Below the pieces are notes generated by a model, which saw only the letters and a program-made list of their open reading frames with translations, made no database searches and was not told where the DNA came from. A stretch of 64,000 nucleotides of DNA from a virus (lineage: Duplodnaviria > Caudoviricetes): IMG/VR virus record IMGVR_UViG_3300013121_000013, positions 1-64,000 of that record; one strand, written 5' to 3'. Position 1 is the stretch's first letter. Each line of letters begins with the position of its first letter. A program made the position numbers and the translations under genes. Of the stretch, positions 7,997 to 18,043 are shown piece after piece.

Positions 7997-8730
7997 CTCA
8001 TTAATAGCTTTATAAGCTCTGGCACAAAATTAAGAATTAGAGCAAATATGGACACAAGAGAGCCTATTACAAAAACTAGTGAGAGATTTTGAGACCATGT
8101 CATTCGGCTAATTCTATCTATAGCCCATTCTGGAACTATGCCAAAGAGCTTTCTATTACCGACATTTGGATCTCTTGCTATTTCGTCTAGCTCTATACCA
8201 CTTTCGTCTAGAAGTGCCATAGTGATAGCTACAGGAAATCCACCCATTTTATCTCTAGATCTTACTTTAGCTAATTCAGCTTCGGTCATTTTAATAACCT
8301 CTGCTGGCCACGGTATTCTTATGACAACGAGTCTTCCCTTTTTAGCCTCTCCATTTTTAACTTTCCAAATTTTCGACATTCTATAGTGAGATACTTCGCC
8401 GGTTATCAGTTTTTTAAAGTTTGTCTTGTCTAGCAACCTTTCTTCAGAAGAAGAGAAGTTATCAAATCTCATGAATTGAAGCTCAAGTTCGCTGTATCCG
8501 GTAAAGTCTTGAAATTCTGAGTTGGCTGATATCATATAGCCGTTTAAACAAACAAGACTCATAGGAATCGGCAAAATATGCATAAGCTTATAAAGAGTTG
8601 ACTCTTTCCAACTTTCTGGAGAGACTCTTCCGTCTAGAAGTGCCTTAATTAGATTTAATTCTTTTTCTTTAAACTCGTTTAAATTCTTATCTTTCAAAAC
8701 TTCTGATACGGGCAGCTTAGACAATGTCAT
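7993..8730 (-). CDS. PAS-domain protein with C-terminal transmembrane helix
   Basis: PIPMSLVCLNG...ANSEFQDFTGYSELEL...KNG PAS S-box pattern; hydrophobic C-terminus. Confidence 0.75.
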   Translation of the reverse strand: MTLSKLPVSEVLKDKNLNEFKEKELNLIKALLDGRVSPESWKESTLYKLMHILPIPMSLVCLNGYMISANSEFQDFTGYSELELQFMRFDNFSSSEERLLDKTNFKKLITGEVSHYRMSKIWKVKNGEAKKGRLVVIRIPWPAEVIKMTEAELAKVRSRDKMGGFPVAITMALLDESGIELDEIARDPNVGNRKLFGIVPEWAIDRISRMTWSQNLSLVFVIGSLVSIFALILNFVPELIKLLMR

Positions 8731-8911
8731 TTTGTCTTTTCTCCATCTATGTCGGAAATATATACGTGGATTATATTTAAGTATATACGCTGCCAGTTGT
8801 TTACGTAAATAGATATGCTAAATTTTCGACAAAAACACGTTATAATATAGTGCAAAAGCTCATAAGTATGAGAGTTGCCGTTTTTATATCTATTTAAAAT
8901 TGATTTTTCAC

Positions 8912-8940
8912 TTGAATTGTTTAAGTTACTTATGTAACAT
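8912..8940 (+). promoter_or_regulatory. Sigma70-like promoter for the tRNA/Y-RNA operon
   Basis: TTGAAT-17 bp-TAACAT, 10 nt upstream of the first RNA element. Confidence 0.55.
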
Positions 8941-8949
8941 CTTTGAATC

Positions 8950-9018
8950 ATAACTGACTGCAGCATTGGACTACATCACTTGTAAGGCGAATGTCTAATG
9001 CGAACCCTTGTCAGTTAT
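8950..9018 (+). ncRNA. Y-RNA-like element Y1 (minimal)
   Basis: ATAACTGAC/GTCAGTTAT outer stem, GCATTGGAC/GTCTAATGC inner stem, TACATC. Confidence 0.75.
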
Positions 9019-9023
9019 AATGT

Positions 9024-9147
9024 GTGAGGGTAGCTCAATGGGCAGAGCACAAAGAGTTCTCTCTGGATAATTTTCGTTGATGTCGTCAACTGCCATCTTG
9101 AGTACATCATAATCTTTAGGTTGTAGGTTCGAATCCTACCCCTCACA
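9024..9147 (+). ncRNA. tRNA(CAU)-like RNA with a circularly permuted Y module inserted in the anticodon loop
   Basis: GTGAGGG/CCCTCAC acceptor stem, normal D and T arms; insert TTTTCGTTGA-TGTCG-TCAACTGC...GAGTACATC. Confidence 0.75.
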
Positions 9148-9152
9148 CTTTT

Positions 9153-9226
9153 TGCAGAGTGGACTGGAGAGGCGCCAGCGCGGCTTCATACGCCGTACGA
9201 CACGGGTTCGATTCCCGTCTCTGCGA
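9153..9226 (+). tRNA. tRNA-Met(CAU)
   Basis: Cloverleaf; GCGGC-TTCATAC-GCCGT anticodon arm; weak 1:72 pair; no encoded CCA. Confidence 0.8.
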
Positions 9227-9227
9227 C

Positions 9228-9376
9228 TTACCAACTGTTTGATAAGAGTACATCAATTTGAATGGTTCGATTCCATTTTCCCCCTATATCTACTATCGGG
9301 GGAAAAGCCACAAGGCGTGGCACTTACCCTTCTGGGGTAAGAATTTATGGATCTCTTGTCTACTCTTCGTTGGTAA
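9228..9376 (+). ncRNA. Y-RNA-like element Y2, YrlA-type with a permuted tRNA cloverleaf
   Basis: TTACCAAC/GTTGGTAA and GATAAGAG/CTCTTGTC stems; T arm, loop-closed acceptor stem, D arm, anticodon-like arm. Confidence 0.8.
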
Positions 9377-9379
9377 CAT

Positions 9380-9436
9380 GGTAGCTCTCTTAGATTTAAA
9401 TAATCTAAGGAGATGACTTTCGAAGGTCAAGCTACC
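9380..9436 (+). ncRNA. Small three-way-junction RNA
   Basis: GGTAGCT/AGCTACC stem closing two hairpins. Confidence 0.5.
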
Positions 9437-9440
9437 CCTT

Positions 9441-9576
9441 CCTGACTGCTAGAATGGAGTACATCCCTTCGGAGGACGAAGAATCGGTGCAAATCCGATC
9501 CCTGCAACTTCAAAATTTATTGCAGGGTAGTGTAATAGATAGCACGCGAAAAATCTCTATTCATCCCCTTGTCAGG
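9441..9576 (+). ncRNA. Y-RNA-like element Y3, YrlA-type with a permuted tRNA(UCG)
   Basis: CCTGAC/GTCAGG and GAATGGAG/CTCTATTC stems; anticodon loop CTTCGGA, T arm, CCCTGCA/TGCAGGG acceptor, D arm. Confidence 0.8.
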
Positions 9577-9582
9577 TTAATT

Positions 9583-9655
9583 GGGCAGTTAGTTCAGCGG
9601 CAAGAGCGCCTCGTTTACACCGAGGATGTCACAGGTTCGAGTCCTGTACTGCCCA
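9583..9655 (+). tRNA. tRNA-Val(UAC)
   Basis: Canonical cloverleaf; CCTCG-TTTACAC-CGAGG. Confidence 0.95.
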
Positions 9656-9657
9656 CT

Positions 9658-9781
9658 TCCGACTGCTGTTTTTAGTACATCGTTCTGCCAGGTGTGGTAA
9701 CTAGCCCACTCCAAGCGACGCCAGCAATGGTGATGGCCCTTAAAGTCGTGTAACTAAGTCTAAAAACAAATCTTTGTCGGA
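9658..9781 (+). ncRNA. Y-RNA-like element Y4 with a ~78 nt non-tRNA insert
   Basis: TCCGAC/GTCGGA and TGTTTTTAG/CTAAAAACA stems, TACATC. Confidence 0.75.
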
Positions 9782-9793
9782 CGTGCGTATTTT

Positions 9794-9877
9794 CGGGGTG
9801 TAGACCGTAACTTGGTAGCGGGCCTGCTTTGGGAGCAGGTGGTATATCCCCTGTAGGTTCAAATCCTATCACCCCGA
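9794..9877 (+). tRNA. tRNA-Pro(UGG) with enlarged variable region
   Basis: CGGGGTG/CACCCCG acceptor; CCTGC-TTTGGGA-GCAGG. Confidence 0.9.
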
Positions 9878-9881
9878 CTTC

Positions 9882-9980
9882 GACAAATAGGCGAGAGTGT
9901 GGCTCGGAGCAGTAATGCGACGGGTGGCTGGGTTTGTAGCATCATAGTGCAATCTCCACAGTATGCACCGTCTGTTTGTC
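9882..9980 (+). ncRNA. Unassigned structured RNA
   Basis: 12-bp closing stem GACAAATAGGCG/CGTCTGTTTGTC with G-U pairs; internal TGTGG/CCACA. Confidence 0.55.
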
Positions 9981-9987
9981 TTATTAT

Positions 9988-10060
9988 GGGACCGTAGCTC
10001 AATGGTCAGAGCAAGGAACTCATAATTCCCAGGTTGTAGGTTCGAATCCTACCGGTCCCA
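9988..10060 (+). tRNA. tRNA-Ile2 or Met (CAU)
   Basis: GGGACCG/CGGTCCC acceptor; CTCATAA loop; Ile2-like body. Confidence 0.9.
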
Positions 10061-10086
10061 CTGTAGGATAACTAACCTATATTTTT

Positions 10087-10173
10087 GGAAGGGCAAGCCA
10101 ATTGGCGGTGGCCGCGCTCTTGAAAAGCGTTAGGGGTTAACGACCCGTGTGGGTTCGACTCCCACCTCTTCCG
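10087..10173 (+). tRNA. tRNA-Ser(UGA)
   Basis: GGAAGGG/CTCTTCC acceptor, CTTGAAA loop, long variable arm, G discriminator. Confidence 0.95.
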
Positions 10174-10180
10174 CTAAACT

Positions 10181-10249
10181 TGGGCTGGGGCAGGGATCTA
10201 GAAATAGAGCTGCTTGCCATTATCATAGGGCTCGTAACCCACCAGTCCG
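10181..10249 (+). ncRNA. Reduced tRNA-like RNA
   Basis: GGGCTGG/CCAGTCC stem, one long arm, T-loop-like GGG-CTCGTAA-CCC. Confidence 0.4.
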
Positions 10250-10252
10250 CTT

Positions 10253-10322
10253 TGCTAACTGTTGGTCCGGATTACATCAATCATTTTTAACCGTTGACAT
10301 CCGGATCGTCACCTCGTTAGCA
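10253..10322 (+). ncRNA. Y-RNA-like element Y5 (minimal)
   Basis: TGCTAAC/GTTAGCA and GGTCCGGAT/ATCCGGATC stems, TACATC. Confidence 0.75.
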
Positions 10323-10333
10323 TAATATTCTTA

Positions 10334-10432
10334 TCGGCGGTGCCTGGAAGGCTTCCTTGTAGAAATCTGCGAATAGTCAGCTGTGCTAGTCTGATTAGAG
10401 GTAAACAGGTTCGATTCCTGTTACATGTCCGA
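10334..10432 (+). ncRNA. Atypical tRNA-like RNA (canonical T arm, aberrant body)
   Basis: AACAGG-TTCGATT-CCTGTT plus three small hairpins; poor acceptor stem. Confidence 0.45.
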
Positions 10433-10434
10433 AT

Positions 10435-10507
10435 GCCGTTCTGGTGTAGCCGGTCTGCACGCCTGCCTGAAGAGCAGGAGGTTCTGGTTCGAACCCAGAG
10501 GACGGTA
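10435..10507 (+). tRNA. tRNA-Phe(GAA)
   Basis: GCCGTTC/GGACGGT acceptor; CCTGC-CTGAAGA-GCAGG. Confidence 0.9.
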
Positions 10508-10890
10508 CTTGTCCACCGGCAGTCCGAAGACTGCTGAGGCCGCCATGTGGGGGTCAGGTAGGGCAGCCATAGAATGTAGGTCCCCTAGCAGGGAGGATGT
10601 CATGAAATCGATGTTTAGCTTTATTATAGCCACGGGTGCGTGTGGCACCCTTTAATAATACCTCAGCTTTTGTGCTTGGCGGCACGAGGATGACTGAGGG
10701 TAGATTTAAATTTGTTAAGTAAGCTTCGTACTTGTCAGAACATTCAGATTCAGTGAGAATACCAATGTAAGATGTAAGATAAGTTTTAGAATTTTAGAAC
10801 CAGGAGATTAGGAGTTGAGCTCCCTAATGTAGCGCCTGGGCAGTGCGCTCAAGTCCGACTGCTTTCTAGTCGGATCTTACTTTTATATAC

Positions 10891-10963
10891 GGGTCTGTGG
10901 CGTAATTGGGAACGCGCTGGATTTGCACTCCGGAGTTGAGGGTTCGATTCCCTCCAGTATCCA
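10891..10963 (+). tRNA. tRNA-Ala(UGC) with a 1-nt acceptor bulge
   Basis: CTGGA-TTTGCAC-TCCGG; G3:U70 is kept if one T of CAGTATCC is bulged. Confidence 0.8.
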
Positions 10964-10967
10964 TTAA

Positions 10968-11027
10968 GCCGACTATCGAACGGTTTACACCATAATGCCA
11001 AAATAAACTGTTCAAATCTTCGTCGGC
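10968..11027 (+). ncRNA. Y-RNA-like element Y6 (minimal)
   Basis: GCCGAC/GTCGGC and GAACGGTTTA/TAAACTGTTC stems, TACACC. Confidence 0.75.
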
Positions 11028-11038
11028 CTAAATCATTT

Positions 11039-11300
11039 TTCAACTGCGGTCAGCGGAGTACACCTGAAAATAGAATTGTTCGGGAGTAGCTTCCCATAAA
11101 GAGCGCTAGCACGTAGGAATGCTCTTTATAAGCAGGCGATCCCTCGTAGCAGCCGGAGGTTAAACGGCGCAAGTAGGAGTTACTTTGAAACCCCCCTGGT
11201 AAAGCTTGGGTTAAATGTGATGCTCGTGGCGACGAGCCTAAACTATAATAAGTGTGGGTGTTCCACGCTTGTTACGCCTCTCCGGACCATTTTCGTTGAA
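11039..11300 (+). ncRNA. Y-RNA-like element Y7 with a ~210 nt structured insert
   Basis: TTCAAC/GTTGAA and GGTC(AG)CGGAG/CTCCGGACC stems, TACACC. Confidence 0.75.
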
Positions 11301-11314
11301 TCTATATTGGTCTA

Positions 11315-11484
11315 GATCGACTGCGGCAGACGGCATTCATCATGCCTAGCTGTTTAAGGAAGGTAATAGGAGAAAGTTCGCGGCCTCCTGGGCACGTCCT
11401 TTAGCCAAAAGAAATCCGCGCATGCCGATAGCCTCTCGGCTGTATGAGGCACCTTAACCCTTGCTGCTGCAACTTTCGTCGATC
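11315..11484 (+). ncRNA. Y-RNA-like element Y8 with a ~120 nt pseudoknotted insert
   Basis: GATCGAC/GTCGATC and GCAG(A)CGGCA/TGCTGCTGC stems, TTCATC. Confidence 0.7.
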
Positions 11485-11487
11485 AAC

Positions 11488-11531
11488 GGAGCCCTGAGGA
11501 TTGTCCTCAGGGCTCCTTGTTTCTTTTTTTT
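11488..11531 (+). terminator. Intrinsic terminator closing the ncRNA operon
   Basis: Perfect 13-bp stem GGAGCCCTGAGGA/TCCTCAGGGCTCC plus a T-rich tract. Confidence 0.85.
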
Positions 11532-11555
11532 CGTTTCTTAATAGGAGAAACTGCA

Positions 11556-13181
11556 ATGTCGAATCCTGATCTCTTTAGCAGCAAATCAGCCACTTCTTCT
11601 TTCGGGCTGAAACATCCTAAGACTGATACTGTGAATAACGCTGGAGGCGTTGCTTATAAATTTACACCGATGCATGCCCTTGCTCAGATGGTTGCGACCG
11701 GAGTGTTTCGTAACACGTATTACACTTCTGGTGCAGAGCAATTGAAGGCATTCATGGAAATTACCGAAGATAAGAAAAGTATCAGTGATGAAAGGCTGGC
11801 TAAGTTAGCGATCTGGGGGCGGCACAACGCTTATATGAAGGACACCCCTGCAGCTTGCGTTATGCGTCTGTTGTCTAGAAACAACATGGACTTGTTCCAT
11901 AAGGTTTTCGATAAAGTAATCGACAACGGTCGAATGCTCCGTAATGCATTTCAGATGTTGAGGTCTGGTGTATTTGGTAGGCGTAGCATGGGATATTCGG
12001 TTCAACGTGCTTTTCAGCGCTGGTTCAATGAGAAGCCAGTACACGTTCTTGTTGCTGGAAGCGTAGGCAACAATCCTAGCCTTAAGGACGTTCTACGTGC
12101 AGCAAGGCCGACTCCTAAAGATCAAGAGAGAGACGCTCTCTTCGGATGGCTTGCTGGCAAGGCCACTGACGCACAGGCACAGAACTTCCCACAAATGTTG
12201 AAAGATATTTTGGAGTTCAGAGCAAACAAAGAACCTAGTGCTCAAATTGAGGTTCTTAACAGGATGGGCGGGTTGCGTTGGGAAATGCTATCTGACGCGA
12301 TTGCTGGTCCAGAGGTGTGGAAGGTAATTATCGGGCATATGGGCCATCAAGCACTTCGTATGAATCTCAATACCCTCGATCGGCATGATGTATTTAAGTC
12401 CAAAGAGACAGTTAATTATGTAGCCAGCAGGCTGTCTGATGTTGAAGAAATCAAGAAGGCAAGGCAGTGGCCTATTCAGTACTTCAGCGCATATATGAAT
12501 GCCGATAATGTCCCTCATAAGATTCGTGAAGCTCTGTGTTCGGCTGCCGAAGTAGCTTGTGGTAATATTCCAGAGCTAGATGGCCCTCTAGTAATTGGCG
12601 TGGATACTTCTGGTTCTATGGGTTCTCCCATTACAGGCGTCCATGCTAAAGGAGGCGCATCGTCCAAAGTGACTTGTAGAGATGCCGCAGCCCTGTTTGC
12701 TGCGGCCCTGATTCGAAAGAATCCGGACTCTCTAGTTGTTCCTTTTGACGATAGGATTCACAAGATCAAGATCGATCCTGGAGATACTATTCTTAGTATT
12801 AGCAAATCCTTGTCTAGACTTGGAGGTGGCGGCACTTGCTGTCATCTACCGCTGCAGCATGCAAATAGTCTTAACAGGCCGTTTGCTGGTTGCGTCATGA
12901 TTTCTGACAATGAAAGCTGGATCGGCACTGGTCGATACGGGTCAACAGGCGTCATGTCGGAGTGGAATATCTTTGTTGATAGGCAGAAAAAGCTTGGTGT
13001 ATATCCAGCGCCAAAGCTTCTAAATATTGACATCGCTCCATATGCATCAACTCAGGCTGTTGATAGGGTTGATATCTTGAATGTTGGAGGATTTTCTGAC
13101 TCTGTCTTTAGCGTTATTTCTGGATGGATGTTCAATAAAGCTGGAACGTTTGTCGATCAGATCGAAGCTGTCCAGCTCTAA
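11556..13181 (+). CDS. rsr: Ro60/Rsr TROVE-domain RNA-binding protein with C-terminal vWA domain
   Basis: N-terminal NNAGGVAY, ALRMNLNTL, MIDAS DTSGSM, GGGT, SDNESW, VGGFSDSVF; AGGAG RBS supports ATG 11556. Confidence 0.92.
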   Translation: MSNPDLFSSKSATSSFGLKHPKTDTVNNAGGVAYKFTPMHALAQMVATGVFRNTYYTSGAEQLKAFMEITEDKKSISDERLAKLAIWGRHNAYMKDTPAACVMRLLSRNNMDLFHKVFDKVIDNGRMLRNAFQMLRSGVFGRRSMGYSVQRAFQRWFNEKPVHVLVAGSVGNNPSLKDVLRAARPTPKDQERDALFGWLAGKATDAQAQNFPQMLKDILEFRANKEPSAQIEVLNRMGGLRWEMLSDAIAGPEVWKVIIGHMGHQALRMNLNTLDRHDVFKSKETVNYVASRLSDVEEIKKARQWPIQYFSAYMNADNVPHKIREALCSAAEVACGNIPELDGPLVIGVDTSGSMGSPITGVHAKGGASSKVTCRDAAALFAAALIRKNPDSLVVPFDDRIHKIKIDPGDTILSISKSLSRLGGGGTCCHLPLQHANSLNRPFAGCVMISDNESWIGTGRYGSTGVMSEWNIFVDRQKKLGVYPAPKLLNIDIAPYASTQAVDRVDILNVGGFSDSVFSVISGWMFNKAGTFVDQIEAVQL

Positions 13182-13296: not shown

Positions 13297-14691
13297 ATGT
13301 CGCTAGAGGTAAAATACATGCAGCAAGTAATAGATAAGTTAATTGCTGGTCTATATCTTATAAAAAGAGGAGCTTCTCCAGAGCTATCATATGATATGCA
13401 TGGAGAGCTTTATTTAAGTAAGTCTGGATGGATTCTATTATCAGTTCCTAACTCTCTTGTTAGAGGATCATTTGATGCTCTTGGAGTTGTCGGAGCTGAA
13501 TTACCTCCAGGTCCTGATGGAAAGCTAAATGCGCATATTTCTGTTATTAGGCCAGAAGAACTTGAGCAGATAGGCGGCGCTGATAAAGTAACAGAAAGAG
13601 GAAAACAGTTTAAGTATAGGATTAAAAGCTTAAAAACTGTAGTTCCATCTAGTTGGCCTGAGATATCTAAAGTCTGGATGTTAGAAGTTCAATCGCCAGA
13701 ATTAGAAAATTTAAGAAAAAGTTATGGACTTTCAGCCAGGCCAAAAGATAACAAATACGAATTTCATATCACCATAGCGGTCAGAAGAAAACACGTCTTA
13801 AAAGAAAATGAAATAGTAAAAAAGAGTGGAGTAATAAAAGTGGCAAACTCAGATAACGCACCTTATAGGGAGCGCGCCGAGGTATTTGCTATTTCTCCTT
13901 CTAATAAAGTATTCGGAGCAATATGGGATAACGATAAGACATTTGCAATTCCTGGTGGAGGAATAGACCCAGGAGAAGATATTACAGAAGGGGCGCTTAG
14001 AGAGTTTAACGAAGAAACTGGATTAAAGATAAGAAATCCAAGATTAGCGCCTGATATAGAGCCAGTCGTGAATCTATGGCCTGAAGAATATAGGAAATCG
14101 GCACCTGAGGATAGAAAGCATTTTCTAGGCAGTAGAACACATTATGTCTTAGCTGATATCGACGATAACTTACTTGTAGATCCTTCTACCGACTACTGGG
14201 GTGCCAAAGACAAGCGCTATTACGATCTTGAAGAGGCTTTAAAGATTCATACTGGATCAGAAATTCCTCCAATGTCTAAACCTCATTGGGAGGTAAGAAA
14301 AAGAATTTTGGAAAATCTGCTTAAAGGCGTACAAAGTAAAAAAGCTGATAATACAACAGATGATGAAGTCTATAGAAATTCTCTTGAGGAGGCAGTAGAA
14401 CATGAATTAGAACACACAGATGACGAAGATATAGCAGAAGAAATAGCTAAAGACCATCTTAAAGAAGATCCAGAATATTATACAAATTTAGATAAGATGC
14501 ATGAATACGTTAATAATCTGGACGATGATTCTGAAGATGCTTTAAAAGACTCTATTGTCATAAAGCAGACAACTATGATTATTTCTTCAAAGAAAGGTAT
14601 TAAGCCTCCTAAAGAATTGGAAAAGATTTTCTCTAAGTCAGCGCCAGGGATACCAGAAGAGCTAGAAGAGTTATTTAACAGAGGTAGATAA
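13297..14691 (+). CDS. 2H-phosphoesterase + Nudix hydrolase + DUF5661-like fusion protein
   Basis: HISV and HITI 2H motifs; Nudix box GGGIDPGEDITEGALREFNEETG; ELEHTDD...IAKDHLKEDPEYY. Confidence 0.8.
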   Translation: MSLEVKYMQQVIDKLIAGLYLIKRGASPELSYDMHGELYLSKSGWILLSVPNSLVRGSFDALGVVGAELPPGPDGKLNAHISVIRPEELEQIGGADKVTERGKQFKYRIKSLKTVVPSSWPEISKVWMLEVQSPELENLRKSYGLSARPKDNKYEFHITIAVRRKHVLKENEIVKKSGVIKVANSDNAPYRERAEVFAISPSNKVFGAIWDNDKTFAIPGGGIDPGEDITEGALREFNEETGLKIRNPRLAPDIEPVVNLWPEEYRKSAPEDRKHFLGSRTHYVLADIDDNLLVDPSTDYWGAKDKRYYDLEEALKIHTGSEIPPMSKPHWEVRKRILENLLKGVQSKKADNTTDDEVYRNSLEEAVEHELEHTDDEDIAEEIAKDHLKEDPEYYTNLDKMHEYVNNLDDDSEDALKDSIVIKQTTMIISSKKGIKPPKELEKIFSKSAPGIPEELEELFNRGR

Positions 14692-16201: not shown

Positions 16202-18043
16202 ATGCAAAGTTTTAAACAGTACTGCTATATGCTTGGAAAATCGGCTGCTTGGTCGTTTAACTCTAAAGGTTGTGTAGGAAAGATTAAGCAAGCTGCTCAA
16301 CTTTATCGTGGTTTGAAGACTGACTATGTAGAACCAAACATTGATAATAAGCGGTATAATGAATTGATTACCAGCGCACTAGATGGCGGTTTATCTAGAA
16401 AAGCACAACACGAATTGCAAATGCTTGGGCGCAGACGCGAACAATTTTACACTGACCAAGAGAATGAGGCGCGACAATATGCTGGTCCTGGCGGTACTTT
16501 GGTGAAATTAAATCTTCCTGATGCTGGCCTATCTGAGTTTAGGTGGACATACAACAATCTCGGTAGGCCAAATCAGTTTTTAACTGGTGCAATAGACTCA
16601 GCGCGATTACAGCGGTTGTTGCAGCGTAGACGATGGTTGCAAAGCATTGAAAAGATAATAATACAACATAACGAGAAACAAGCTGCTAAAGGTATACCAG
16701 ATAGAAAAGATTACGGAGATTTATCAAATATTAATATTGGTCAATTAGTTGATTGGATAGTTCAAAAACACGACGCAGAGAGAGCGGGAACTCATTATGA
16801 CGTTCGGTTTGGAACTCCAGAATCTGGATTGTACTCATGGGCAGCTAGAAAAGGCTTACCTAAACCTGGAGAGAAAAACTTAGCCGTTCAACAACCTCTT
16901 CACTCTTATGATTATAAAGATTTTGAAGGCCGAATTGAGGAAGGCTACGGCAAAGGAAACGTCAAGAAGCAAGATTCAGGAGAGATTCTATTAACTGATG
17001 TTTCTCCTAATAAGATTAATTTTACTACCGGTTCTAAGAGATTCCCAGAGAGATTCTCTTTAGTAAGAACAGGCAAAGGTAAGAACTGGCTTTTATTAAA
17101 CACAACACCAACAAAATCAGTAGGTGTAGATAAGGTACATTATAAGGTAGTAGACGCTGATAAAGTTCAGCCTTTGATAGACGATCTATCAAAAGGCTCG
17201 TCTGTTCAGGCTAAGATAGATGGAGCCTCTTCTTTAATTAATCTAGTTAAAGATAAAGTTGAGCTTCTTTCATATAGACAAAACAAAGCTACTGGATATC
17301 CAATCTTTCATACTGAAAGGGCTTTTGGTGGAATACCCAAAGGAGTTCCTAAAGATTTAAATGACACTACCTTGAGAGGAGAGCTTTATGGATTAAAGAA
17401 TAATAAAGTCATTCCTCCAAGCGAGTTAGGTGGGCTCCTTAACTCTGGAGTAGCTAAAAGCTTAAAAGATCAGAAAGATCGAGGCATACAACTTAGAAAT
17501 ATGGTGTATGATATAGCTAAGTATAAAGGAAAAGAAATAGATGTAAATAAAATACCATACGAGCAACGAATGAAATATATAAAAGAAATACTTGATAAGA
17601 TTCCGCACGGAGATAGATTTGAAGTTGCCCAGGAAGCTAAGACTCCAGACGAAGCAAGATCTTTACTAGATAGCATTAGATCCGGGCAGCACCCTCAAAC
17701 TTCTGAAGGAATAGTTATTCATCCTCCTACTGGAAATCCTATTAAGTCTAAGCTCCTTGAAGAACAGGATGTTCATATAAGAGAATTCTTCCCAGGAAAA
17801 GGAAGGTTGCTAGATAAGGGTGTAGGTGGGTTTAAATATAGCTTAACTCCTACAGGGCCTATATTAGGAGAAGTAGGGACCGGGCTGACAGATGATATGC
17901 GAAGTCAGATGCATCAGGACCAAGGGTCTTTTATAGGCCGCCGAGCCAGGGTCAGATCACAAGGAGCGCTGCCTAGCGGTGCATTAAGGGCGCCGGCTTT
18001 AATATCTTTACATGAAGATTATCCTCTTATGCAAGGACAATAA
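16202..18043 (+). CDS. ATP-dependent DNA ligase fused to a LigD-type 3'-phosphoesterase domain
   Basis: VQKHDA..HYDVRF..SWAARKG..H..DY.DFEG.I..GYGKG (PE domain); KIDG, GELY, YDI, EGIV, VGTGL (ligase/OB fold). Confidence 0.88.
   Translation: MQSFKQYCYMLGKSAAWSFNSKGCVGKIKQAAQLYRGLKTDYVEPNIDNKRYNELITSALDGGLSRKAQHELQMLGRRREQFYTDQENEARQYAGPGGTLVKLNLPDAGLSEFRWTYNNLGRPNQFLTGAIDSARLQRLLQRRRWLQSIEKIIIQHNEKQAAKGIPDRKDYGDLSNINIGQLVDWIVQKHDAERAGTHYDVRFGTPESGLYSWAARKGLPKPGEKNLAVQQPLHSYDYKDFEGRIEEGYGKGNVKKQDSGEILLTDVSPNKINFTTGSKRFPERFSLVRTGKGKNWLLLNTTPTKSVGVDKVHYKVVDADKVQPLIDDLSKGSSVQAKIDGASSLINLVKDKVELLSYRQNKATGYPIFHTERAFGGIPKGVPKDLNDTTLRGELYGLKNNKVIPPSELGGLLNSGVAKSLKDQKDRGIQLRNMVYDIAKYKGKEIDVNKIPYEQRMKYIKEILDKIPHGDRFEVAQEAKTPDEARSLLDSIRSGQHPQTSEGIVIHPPTGNPIKSKLLEEQDVHIREFFPGKGRLLDKGVGGFKYSLTPTGPILGEVGTGLTDDMRSQMHQDQGSFIGRRARVRSQGALPSGALRAPALISLHEDYPLMQGQ
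17174..17192. promoter_or_regulatory. Palindromic motif copy 2 (TTGATAGA-CGA-TCTATCAA), intragenic
   Basis: Same 8-bp arms as the other copies, 3-nt spacer. Confidence 0.45.

What the first reader, a model, noticed from the sequence alone, without database searches (positions are those of the whole stretch)
9228..9376. Y2 carries a full permuted cloverleaf with the Ro module at the variable-arm position
Seen: T arm AATGG-TTCGATT-CCATT, acceptor TTCCCCC/GGGGGAA closed by a 13-nt loop, D arm GCCA/TGGC, and an anticodon-like arm CTTACC-CTTCTGG-GGTAAG (UCU, Arg-like). A short AATTT/GAATT helix links to the Y scaffold. This is a third Y-tRNA junction point, after the anticodon loop (9024) and the anticodon stem (Y3). 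Inference: Ro-module/tRNA fusions arose repeatedly and independently.
Basis: partly seen in the sequence, partly recalled or inferred. Interest (0 to 1): 0.72.

Follow-up and report, generated by a model that had tools for sequence, protein, structure and literature searches.

The report
Phage Y RNA with rearranged tRNA
This 149-base phage RNA gene is a Ro60-binding "Y RNA" whose head is a circularly rearranged tRNA that, unusually, keeps a closed anticodon-like hairpin; it is a rare variant of a known class of tRNA mimics and shows no sign of a separate origin.

Summary
It lies 2.1 kb upstream of a phage Ro60 gene on the same strand. Its scaffold (RACUG, 8-bp helix, UACAUC, CUUCGUYGG) recurs upstream of Ro60 in 72 of 160 loci and covaries.

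Circularised and opened in the acceptor loop, native letters only, it is called tRNA-Arg(UCU) by ARAGORN (0 of 1000 shuffles), and only if the hairpin is the anticodon arm. That test is permissive.

So [quoted passage not shown] is a fair topological reading. It is rare: among 163 related modules only Y2 has it, plus one analogue with a UUCG loop in a distant phage Ro60 locus.

Independent origin is not shown. Its CAU/AUG pairing matches the anticodon-stem equivalent of hairpin-less relatives, so a 24-nt insertion explains it as well. No homologues exist to test the hairpin or link by covariation.

The scan had already noted neighbouring modules of this array. Verdict: new variant of YrlA-type Y RNAs.

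The parts
9228..9235 (+). Helix 1, 5' strand (UUACCAAC). It contains the family's RAC of the RACUG motif (AACUG 9233-9237) and pairs with 9369-9376.
   Evidence: pair probability 0.95-1.0. The same helix covaries in 49 short relatives: GAC/GUC alternates with AAC/GUU.
9241..9248 (+). Helix 2, 5' strand (GAUAAGAG), pairs with CUCUUGUC 9353-9360.
   Evidence: probability about 1.0. The homologous helix has compensatory changes at 5 of 7 pairs in 49 relatives. Strain variant G9241A opens only the terminal pair.
9249..9254 (+). UACAUC, the invariant scaffold motif that follows helix 2.
   Evidence: Invariant in 49 aligned short Y RNAs. It is part of the RACUG-N-UACAUC signature found in 72 of 160 Ro60 loci.
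9251..9258 (+). Link helix, 5' strand: CAU (outer), unpaired C, AAUU (inner). It pairs with 9342-9349.
   Evidence: 0.85-0.92 outer, 0.62-0.78 inner. The outer part matches the ACAU/AUGU anticodon-stem equivalent of hairpin-less relatives.
9261..9277 (+). T arm: AAUGG, loop UUCGAUU, CCAUU. The G53-C61 and U54-A58 equivalents are present.
9278..9304 (+). Acceptor-like 7-bp stem closed by a 13-nt loop. It follows the T stem with no base between them.
   Evidence: Strain changes: C9282U keeps a G-U pair, and the 9285 deletion and C9293G lie in the loop.
9307..9321 (+). D arm: GCCA(C) / (G)UGGC with GG in the loop, preceded by AA instead of the family's UA.
   Evidence: 1.0. Strain change C9308U keeps a U-G pair.
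9323..9341 (+). Closed anticodon-like hairpin (X): CUUACC, loop CUUCUGG, GGUAAG. One base (A9322) separates it from the D arm.
   Evidence: 0.93-1.0. ARAGORN reads it as the anticodon arm with anticodon UCU. It is invariant in the strain variants.
9342..9349 (+). Link helix, 3' strand: AAUU, unpaired U, AUG.
9353..9360 (+). Helix 2, 3' strand (CUCUUGUC).
9365..9376 (+). 3' scaffold motif CUUCGUUGG running into helix 1, 3' strand (GUUGGUAA).
   Evidence: The UCGU core is invariant, and the pairs with the 5' strand covary in relatives.
9153..9227 (+). Upstream tRNA-like gene (CAU) that ends one base before Y2. Its 3' processing would make the Y2 5' end.
   Evidence: ARAGORN; Rfam tRNA 37 bits; fold. 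The processing itself is inferred.
9380..9438 (+). Downstream mini tRNA-like element: 7-bp acceptor-type stem, a long hairpin and a T-like hairpin. RNase P-type cleavage at its 5' end would make the Y2 3' end.
   Evidence: Fold -21.3 kcal/mol, z -3.7. The processing is inferred.
11517..13181 (+). Phage Ro60 (TROVE plus vWA) gene, the presumed protein partner.
   Evidence: Pfam vWA_Ro60 5e-14 and TROVE 5e-9. It has 3231 homologues, the best 56% identical and mostly Planctomycetota. The metal-site residues D350, S352 and S354 are invariant.

Best explanation
Y2 is a non-coding Y RNA of the phage's Ro60 system, YrlA-like in function.

Shown: it has the two covarying scaffold helices and the invariant motifs (RACUG, UACAUC, CUUCGUYGG) of a large family of RNAs that sit upstream of Ro60 genes, on the same strand, in Planctomycetota and some phages. 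Its apical insert is a circularly permuted tRNA-like domain in the order T arm, closed 7-bp acceptor stem, D arm. One base after the D arm comes a closed 6-bp hairpin in the position and register of an anticodon arm. The scaffold is therefore attached through a 7-bp AU-rich helix that leaves the five-way junction between that hairpin and the T arm, which is the place of a class II variable arm.

Inferred:
- It is transcribed as part of the tRNA/Y-RNA array 8950-11490 and released by RNase Z and RNase P acting on the tRNA-like elements that abut it.
- Ro60 binds the scaffold helices.
- T-loop and D-loop (UUCGA with GG) form a tRNA elbow.
- The hairpin stacks under the D stem to complete the long arm of the L. 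The tRNA-shaped head then serves as the effector or tether module and nuclease-resistant cap, as proposed for YrlA.
- The 7-bp acceptor stem makes cleavage by RNase P at 9297/9298 plausible, as seen for Mycobacterium smegmatis YrlA.
- Its most likely origin is a hairpin insertion, or a shift of the junction, within an existing family member, not a fresh tRNA capture.
For: Context: the Ro60 gene lies 2.1 kb downstream on the same strand. The array holds eight scaffold motifs.

Family: the motif occurs in 72 of 160 Ro60 loci, and all but five hits are on the Ro60 strand. 145 of 151 instances have a complementary 3' strand. 11 of 15 scaffold pairs show compensatory changes in 49 short members.

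Fold: z -6.2; pair probabilities as.

tRNA likeness: ARAGORN calls tRNA-Arg(UCU) on native letters circularised at 9251/9349 and opened anywhere from 9282 to 9301. It of 1000 shuffles. It makes no call without the hairpin or with the link as anticodon stem.

Spacing matches tRNA: 0 nt between T and acceptor, 2 nt between acceptor and D, 1 nt between D and hairpin.

Strain variants: two stem changes keep G-U pairs, three changes lie in loops, and one opens a terminal pair.

Precedents: YrlA is a tRNA mimic with a closed acceptor. M. smegmatis YrlA, which has a 7-bp stem, is cut by RNase P and gains CCA (PMC4201824; 10.1101/312249).

Origin: the CAU/AUG pairing corresponds to ACAU/AUGU of hairpin-less relatives. 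About six relatives carry a hairpin on the 3' side of the junction. One analogue with the same strand order lies in a distant phage locus, L132:4801-4885.
Against: There is no expression, end-mapping or Ro60-binding data for this RNA.

The hairpin and link are invariant in all strain variants, and no diverged homologue exists, so they have no covariation support.

The Rfam YrlA model does not recognise it: 11 bits against a cut-off of 69.

The YrlA 5' motif GNCGAA and the UA linker are absent.

U8 and A14 equivalents are missing, so the core tertiary fold may differ from tRNA.

The inner link helix is only four A-U pairs (probability 0.62-0.78).

Which helix stacks on the D stem cannot be decided from sequence.
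Confidence: 0.62

Rival explanations
1. Ordinary YrlA-type module with an accessory hairpin. The link helix (CAU-C-AAUU / AAUU-U-AUG) is the anticodon-stem equivalent and stacks under the D stem as in relatives. The hairpin 9323-9341 is a lineage-specific insertion between positions 26 and 27. It sticks out as a stabilising or protein-binding add-on, so its anticodon-like look is accidental.
For: - In 13 of 14 hairpin-less short-connector relatives the D arm is followed by A-AUGU, complementary to ACAU of UACAU. Y2 keeps CAU/AUG.
- Accessory hairpins near this junction occur in other members, capped by GNRA, UUCG or UCU loops rather than 7-nt loops.
- The Y2 loop prefers an 8-bp stem with a UCU triloop.
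- The outer 5 bp of the hairpin are identical to the outer 5 bp of helix 1, which suggests a local duplication.
Against: - Only U9259 and G9260 would be left as the variable loop, against 4-5 nt in all relatives.
- ARAGORN rejects this reading at default threshold.
- A 19-nt hairpin at position 26 would sit exactly where the D stem and anticodon stem stack.
- In the other 3'-side-hairpin relatives the hairpin always comes after 3-5 anticodon-stem pairs, not before them.
Confidence: 0.28
2. Cryptic permuted tRNA-Arg gene. RNase P and 3' trimming plus CCA addition would open the acceptor loop. The result would be a two-piece, chargeable tRNA-Arg(UCU) held together by the Y scaffold, which would supply AGA/AGG decoding to the phage.
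For: - AGA is 57% and AGG 17% of Arg codons in 124 long ORFs of this 40% GC phage.
- The phage has 24 tRNA genes, none for Arg, by ARAGORN and by Rfam tRNA.
- Y2 has a 7-bp acceptor stem, and M. smegmatis YrlA with such a stem is cut by RNase P and gains CCA (PMC4201824).
Against: - G stands at position 37 where tRNAs that read A-starting codons carry A (own knowledge).
- C stands at position 20, where bacterial ArgRS needs A20 (own knowledge).
- A stands at position 8.
- The anticodon stem has 6 bp, and positions 32 and 38 are Watson-Crick complementary.
- A scaffold of about 70 nt, probably with Ro60 bound, would sit in the variable arm.
- The record is only 76% complete, so a tRNA-Arg gene may lie in the missing part.
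Confidence: 0.05
3. Non-functional remnant: a decayed junction of two tandem tRNA genes that happens to lie inside a Y scaffold.
For: Tandem tRNA junctions give the same T - acceptor 3' - spacer - acceptor 5' - D - anticodon order and were picked up by the Y2 covariance model. The dimeric-tRNA origin model for YrlA exists in the literature (10.1101/312249).
Against: - The acceptor strands pair perfectly, 7 of 7.
- All helices are intact and the scaffold motifs are intact.
- Strain variants change stems only to G-U pairs.
- The element is exactly flanked by processing signals.
Confidence: 0.05

Closest known systems
YrlA (Y RNA-like A) of Salmonella Typhimurium and about 250 bacteria and phages; Rfam RF02553; crystal structure 6CU1 (Chen et al. 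2014, PMC4201824; Wang et al. 2018, 10.1101/312249)
   Same: - It is encoded within a few kb of Ro60, on the same strand.
- A Ro60-binding stem is formed by the 5' and 3' ends.
- The effector domain is a permuted tRNA mimic in the order T arm, closed acceptor stem, D arm.
- The T loop and the GG of the D loop are conserved.
   Different: - In YrlA the anticodon stem is formed by the two strands that lead to the Ro module, and there is no anticodon loop. Y2 has a closed hairpin directly after the D arm, and the Ro module leaves between it and the T arm.
- Y2 lacks the GNCGAA motif and the UA linker.
- Y2 scores 11 bits on RF02553, against a cut-off of 69.
Planctomycete/phage 'UACAUC' Y RNAs found here (about 160 tRNA-like modules and about 80 short ones next to Ro60 genes)
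   Same: The scaffold is identical: RACUG, covarying helices 1 and 2, UACAUC, CUUCGUYGG. The T - acceptor - D order and the genomic position are also the same.
   Different: Relatives have either a 5'-side hairpin before the T arm (71), no hairpin (74), or rarely a 3'-side hairpin placed 3-9 nt after the D arm below a short anticodon-stem piece (about 6). Only Y2 has the hairpin 1 nt after the D arm together with a 6-nt 5' connector.
L132:4801-4885, a Y-like RNA upstream of a distant phage Ro60 (IMG/VR contig; Ro60 about 25% identical)
   Same: It has the same strand order: link, T, acceptor, D, one base, 6-7 bp hairpin, link. It scores 34.5 bits, E 3e-6, with the Y2 model.
   Different: It uses a different scaffold family (GUUCGGUUAUC ... 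CCGAUCUUCGC). Its hairpin is capped by a UUCG tetraloop, not a 7-nt loop. It has 5 nt rather than 2 nt before the T arm and 4 nt after the hairpin.
Mycobacterium smegmatis YrlA (PMC4201824)
   Same: It has a 7-bp acceptor-like stem closed by a loop. That RNA is cut by RNase P and receives CCA, and the halves stay bound to Rsr.
   Different: It has the canonical junction at the anticodon stem. Cleavage of Y2 is only predicted.
Deinococcus radiodurans Yrn1 (PMC4201824)
   Same: It is a Y RNA with a T arm and a closed anticodon-like arm (5 bp, 6-nt loop).
   Different: In Yrn1 the Ro stem takes the place of the acceptor stem and the order is not permuted. Y2 has a closed acceptor as well.
Circularly permuted tRNA genes of Cyanidioschyzon merolae and class II tRNAs with long variable arms (own knowledge; the permuted genes are cited in 10.1101/312249)
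   Same: The tRNA segments are in permuted order, with the acceptor initially closed. A helix emerges between the anticodon arm and the T arm.
   Different: Those precursors are matured into ordinary tRNAs through a circular intermediate. Nothing suggests that here, and the 'variable arm' here is a protein-binding scaffold of about 70 nt.

Membership tests
YrlA (Rfam RF02553) | Scores at or above the Rfam gathering threshold (69 bits) | tested here: not met
   Searching the phage's own genome gives 11.1 bits (E 3) at 9194-9270, which only partly overlaps Y2, and no hit over the cut-off anywhere. No Y-RNA family was reported at E <= 10.
YrlA (Rfam RF02553) | Encoded within about 4 kb of a Ro60/TROVE gene on the same strand (Chen et al. 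2014) | tested here: met
   Y2 is at 9228-9376 (+) and Ro60 at 11517-13181 (+).
YrlA (Rfam RF02553) | GNCGAAN0-1G motif near the 5' end | tested here: not met
   The 5' part UUACCAACUGUUUGAUAAGAG has no such motif. The family here uses RACUG ... UACAUC instead.
YrlA (Rfam RF02553) | Order T arm, closed acceptor-like stem, D arm, with tRNA-type T loop and GG in the D loop | tested here: met
YrlA (Rfam RF02553) | Conserved UA dinucleotide between acceptor stem and D arm | tested here: not met
   Y2 has AA at 9305-9306, whereas relatives have UA, or UG in a minority.
YrlA (Rfam RF02553) | Anticodon-stem equivalent formed by the strands that lead to the Ro module, with no anticodon loop (Wang et al. 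2018) | tested here: not met
   A closed hairpin follows the D arm after one base, and the Ro module is joined by a separate helix.
YrlA (Rfam RF02553) | Bound by Ro60/Rsr; carries tRNA modifications (pseudouridine 55, dihydrouridine) | not testable with these tools
   This needs co-immunoprecipitation or EMSA and modification mapping.
Planctomycete/phage UACAUC-type Y RNA scaffold (defined here) | RACUG, then an 8-10 bp helix, then UACAUC on the 5' side; helix complement, pyrimidine-rich spacer and YUYGUY on the 3' side; outer helix pairing RAC with GUY | tested here: met
   Y2 matches every element. The AAC/GUU form is one of the two covarying states.
Canonical tRNA | Cloverleaf recognised by a tRNA finder | tested here: inconclusive
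   As encoded it is not found. After un-permutation it is called tRNA-Arg(UCU) at default threshold, against 0 of 1000 shuffles. The same procedure with free joins of 99 relatives, so the test is permissive.
Canonical tRNA | Free 5' end and 3' CCA end on the acceptor stem | tested here: not met
   The acceptor is closed by a 12-13 nt loop and no CCA is encoded.
Canonical tRNA | Core tertiary nucleotides U8, A14, R15-Y48, G18, G19, U54-A58, G53-C61 | tested here: inconclusive
   G18, G19, U54, U55, C56, A58 and G53-C61 are present. U8 is A, and A14 is C in the 4-bp reading. A15 could pair with U9259 as Y48. These assignments were made by eye.
Canonical tRNA | 5-bp anticodon stem, open 7-nt loop with U33 and the purine 37 expected for the anticodon | tested here: not met
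   The stem is 6 bp. U33 is present. Position 37 is G, where A is expected for UCU. Positions 32/38 (C-G) and 33/37 (U-G) can pair, at probability 0.99 and 0.80.

The most novel reading that the evidence does not exclude
Y2 (UCU) and its neighbour Y3 (read as UCG) display arginine-type anticodon arms on Ro60-binding scaffolds. The phage uses AGA/AGG for 74% of its arginine codons and carries 24 tRNA genes, but none for arginine.

The most novel reading not excluded takes these as functional anticodon-arm displays, in one of two forms. In the first, RNase P opens the acceptor loop and yields a two-piece, chargeable tRNA-Arg. In the second, which is more plausible, they act as decoys or sensors for a host tRNA-Arg anticodon nuclease. 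They would bring Ro60 and the adjacent RNA-repair genes (2H phosphoesterase-Nudix; 3'-phosphoesterase-ligase) to damaged tRNA.
Probability: 0.08. Interest if true: 0.85.

Novelty: new variant of a known kind. Interest (0 to 1): 0.5.

Why it matters
Y RNAs tether Ro60 to partners, and bacterial YrlA does so with a tRNA mimic whose partner is still unknown. Published descriptions say YrlA lacks an anticodon loop and joins the Ro module through the anticodon stem.

Y2 shows that the same scaffold can carry a tRNA mimic joined at another point, with a contiguous D arm plus anticodon-like arm. The relatives collected here show that the junction point wanders along the anticodon arm. That points to the elbow and the overall L shape as the conserved parts, not the anticodon end. 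It also gives natural variants for testing which parts of the mimic the unknown effector reads.

For the origin of Y RNAs, Y2 resembles the intermediate that the published dimeric-tRNA model predicts: T arm of one tRNA, spacer, then acceptor, D and anticodon arm of the next. The evidence here does not show that it arose that way.

Tried and rejected
- **Rfam.** No Y-RNA or YrlA family hit in 8400-11600 even at E <= 10. RF02553 on the whole phage record gave nothing over the cut-off.
- **Close relatives of the phage.** The single-protein Ro60 search of viral contigs found none. The best Ro60 relative among 5.8 billion proteins is 56% identical. blastn against 50,697 phage records matched only tRNA genes.
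- **DNA pattern scans of viral contigs.** One for the scaffold motif alone and one for scaffold plus a nearby T arm returned only chance matches.
- **Sequencing runs.** No RNA holder is listed. Ten wastewater DNA runs from three studies hold the stretch. Contigs laid on it gave strain variants but none in the hairpin or link.
- **Parental tRNA.** The un-permuted Y2 is at most 70% identical to any of 772 tRNAs from the phage and all loci, and 64% to the phage's own. No parent was identified.
- **Alternative register for helix 2** (AGAGUA/UACUCU), considered by eye, has probability 0 and does not fit the family alignment.
- **Covariance model of the Y2 core.** Most hits below about 30 bits are tandem tRNA genes or canonical modules forced onto the model.
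- **PHROGs** added nothing for the neighbouring genes beyond Nudix.
- **Terminator reading of the hairpin** was rejected: no U tract follows it.

Full report
**What is there**

The window is part of a 155.6-kb virus record, estimated 76% complete. Between 8950 and 11490 on the + strand lies an array of tRNA genes and structured RNAs. It ends at a strong hairpin with a U tract at 11488-11516. The next gene, 11517-13181, encodes a Ro60 orthologue, with Pfam vWA_Ro60 at 5e-14 and TROVE at 5e-9. Further downstream come a 2H-phosphoesterase/Nudix fusion and a 3'-phosphoesterase/ATP-dependent ligase fusion.

The finding, 9228-9376, begins one base after a tRNA-like gene (9153-9227). It ends three bases before a small tRNA-like element (9380-9438; fold z -3.7).

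**Check of the observation**

- T arm: AAUGG-UUCGAUU-CCAUU, 9261-9277.
- Acceptor: a 7-bp stem, UUCCCCC with GGGGGAA, following the T stem directly and closed by 13 nt.
- Spacer: AA.
- D arm: GCCA/UGGC with GG in its loop, 9307-9321.
- One base: A9322.
- Hairpin: CUUACC-CUUCUGG-GGUAAG, 9323-9341.

The whole element folds at -54.8 kcal/mol, against -33.3 +/- 3.5 for dinucleotide shuffles (z -6.2). In the ensemble all helices are predicted: scaffold helices about 1.0, hairpin 0.93-1.0, D stem 1.0, acceptor 0.70-1.0, link 0.62-0.92 and T stem 0.44-0.80. The model also pairs C9329-G9335 and U9330-G9334, so an 8-bp stem with a UCU triloop competes with the 7-nt loop.

**It is a Y RNA**

The signature RACUG, 6-12 nt, UACAUC occurs six times in 8950-10330 of the window. 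Two close variants (UACACC at 11042, UUCAUC at 11319) follow before the Ro60 gene.

I collected 160 loci around Ro60 homologues, 80 from viral contigs and 80 from genomes that are nearly all Planctomycetota. The signature occurs in 72 of them. All but five hits are on the Ro60 strand, typically upstream of the gene. 145 of 151 instances have a complementary 3' strand preceded by pyrimidines.

An alignment of 49 short members gives two helices with compensatory changes at 11 of 15 pairs. ACUG, UACAUC and UCGU are invariant. Y2 has all of these elements, in the AAC/GUU state of the covarying outer helix.

This scaffold is not the GNCGAA type described for YrlA. The Rfam YrlA model does not see Y2: 11 bits against a cut-off of 69.

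**The tRNA-like insert**

Published YrlA has the order (variable stem-loop), T arm, closed acceptor, D arm. The strands that lead to the Ro60 site form the anticodon-stem equivalent, and there is no anticodon loop (PMC4201824; 10.1101/312249). Y2 shares T, closed acceptor and D, but adds a closed hairpin one base after the D arm. Only U9259 and G9260 lie between the link and the T arm.

With artificial loops, and then with native letters only (9251-9349 circularised and opened in the acceptor loop), ARAGORN at default settings calls tRNA-Arg(UCU). It places the hairpin as anticodon arm and the link as variable arm. None of 1000 dinucleotide shuffles is called, and only openings between 9282 and 9301 give a call. 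The competing reading (link as anticodon stem, hairpin removed) is not called until the threshold is lowered to 85%.

A control tempers this result. When the 5' and 3' parts of 99 related modules are joined at all possible points, 91 give some call, with anticodons that change with the join. So ARAGORN needs little more than good T, acceptor and D arms. For Y2, however, all 118 calls have the same anticodon, and none is obtained unless the hairpin is included.

Several features argue against a decoding tRNA:
- A at position 8.
- C at position 20.
- G at position 37.
- A 6-bp stem.
- Pairable positions 32 and 38.

**How unusual the topology is**

Among 163 non-redundant UACAU-type modules from 240 Ro60 loci:
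- 71 have a hairpin between UACAU and the T arm.
- 74 have none.
- About six have a clear hairpin on the 3' side (L210, L345, two in L353, L354, L365). In these it starts 3-9 nt after the D arm, below a short anticodon-stem segment that pairs with the 5' strand. It is capped by GNRA, GCCA or UCU loops.

Only Y2 has the hairpin 1 nt after the D arm together with a 6-nt 5' connector.

A covariance model of the Y2 core found one analogue with the same strand order. L132:4801-4885 lies directly upstream of a distant phage Ro60 (34.5 bits, E 3e-6) and has a 6-7 bp hairpin capped by UUCG. Other hits were tandem tRNA genes or canonical modules.

The junction between Ro module and tRNA mimic therefore sits at different points along the anticodon arm in different members. 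Y2 is the extreme case, in which the whole arm is contiguous with the D arm.

**Origin**

For the neighbouring element at 9024-9147 this is plausible. Its D arm and its T arm with the variable loop are nearly identical to the tRNA at 9988 (alignments).

For Y2 I found no parental tRNA. The best global identity among 772 tRNAs is 70%, and 64% to the phage's own, against a median of 54%.

In 13 of 14 hairpin-less short-connector relatives the D arm is followed by A-AUGU, complementary to ACAU of UACAU. Y2 has CAU paired with AUG at the corresponding place. The hairpin plus AAUUU can therefore be read as a 24-nt insertion between positions 26 and 27.

The outer five pairs of the hairpin (UUACC/GGUAA, with the preceding AC) are identical to the outer five pairs of helix 1. 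This hints at a local duplication.

The published dimeric-tRNA model (10.1101/312249) would also produce this order. The data do not discriminate between these routes, so independent origin is not shown.

**Variation**

Wastewater metagenome contigs from three studies hold the region. Within Y2 they differ at six places:
- U9239C lies in the internal loop.
- G9241A lies at the end of helix 2.
- C9282U and C9308U both convert G-C to G-U.
- A 1-nt deletion at 9285 and C9293G both lie in the acceptor loop.

This pattern is compatible with the fold but weak, since any C-to-U change in a stem keeps a wobble pair. Nothing varies in the hairpin or link.

**Likely function**

By analogy with characterised Y RNAs, the scaffold binds the phage Ro60 and the tRNA-shaped head recruits a tRNA-binding partner or protects the RNA. 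That is inference. So are release by RNase Z and RNase P at the abutting tRNA-like elements, and possible RNase P cleavage at 9297/9298. The latter rests on the 7-bp stem, as in M. smegmatis YrlA (PMC4201824).

**A coincidence worth recording**

The phage (40% GC) uses AGA for 57% and AGG for 17% of arginine codons. It has 24 tRNA genes, none for arginine, by ARAGORN and by the Rfam tRNA model.

The sequence features listed above speak against decoding, and the record is incomplete. I therefore give a functional anticodon display (split tRNA or nuclease decoy) about 8%.

**Verdict**

The topological reading is acceptable but rests on a single sequence, and independent origin is not supported. 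Y2 is a new variant of the YrlA kind of Ro60-associated tRNA mimic.

Noticed in passing
whole phage record (window = bases 1-64000 of it): The phage has 24 tRNA genes (7 in the window, the rest at 121-122 kb and 143-149 kb) but none for arginine. AGA is 57% and AGG 17% of arginine codons in 124 long ORFs, and GC is 40%. The record is estimated 76% complete.
   Followed up: partly
window 9380-9438: A 59-nt mini tRNA-like element fills the gap between Y2 and Y3: a 7-bp acceptor-type stem GGUAGCU/AGCUACC, a 10-bp hairpin and a T-like hairpin, with no D arm (z -3.7). No tRNA finder calls it. It may serve only as a processing signal.
   Followed up: partly
window 9226-9232 and 9322-9328; 9337-9341 and 9372-9376: The 7-mer ACUUACC occurs twice, and so does GGUAA. 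The hairpin stem is therefore a copy of the outer five pairs of Y2's terminal helix. The hairpin's 3' half (CUUCUGGGGUAAG) matches the 3' terminal strand (CUUCGUUGGUAAC) at 9 of 13 places. This may be a local duplication or may allow alternative pairing.
   Followed up: no
L201:2839-2948, L207:3454-3566, L248:3253-3371: Some planctomycete Y RNAs of the same scaffold carry a non-permuted cloverleaf-like insert: a stem, two hairpins, then a T arm. The Ro module sits where the acceptor stem would be, as described for Deinococcus Yrn1.
   Followed up: no
L221:3752 onward, L207:3793 onward and similar modules (L295, L311, L323, L329): Another insert type has a T arm and a closed acceptor stem, followed by ACC and a long GC-rich hairpin instead of a D arm.
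   Followed up: no
phage record 121330-121447 (outside the window; L280): This is the best RF02553 (YrlA) match in the phage, 18 bits, E 0.03, over the full model length. It overlaps tRNA-Asn at 121308-121382, so it is probably a tandem-tRNA artefact.
   Followed up: no
window 13297-14691 and 16202-18043: Two RNA end-healing/sealing type genes lie just downstream of Ro60: a 2H phosphoesterase-Nudix-DUF5661 fusion and a LigD-type 3'-phosphoesterase fused to an ATP-dependent ligase domain. This fits the RNA-repair neighbourhood known for bacterial rsr loci (PMC7790460).
   Followed up: partly
window 9024-9147 versus 9988-10060: The tRNA with a 57-nt insert carrying a looped-back Y scaffold shares its D arm, and its T arm with the variable loop, almost letter for letter with the tRNA(CAU) at 9988 (alignments). 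This points to a recent duplication followed by insertion.
   Followed up: partly
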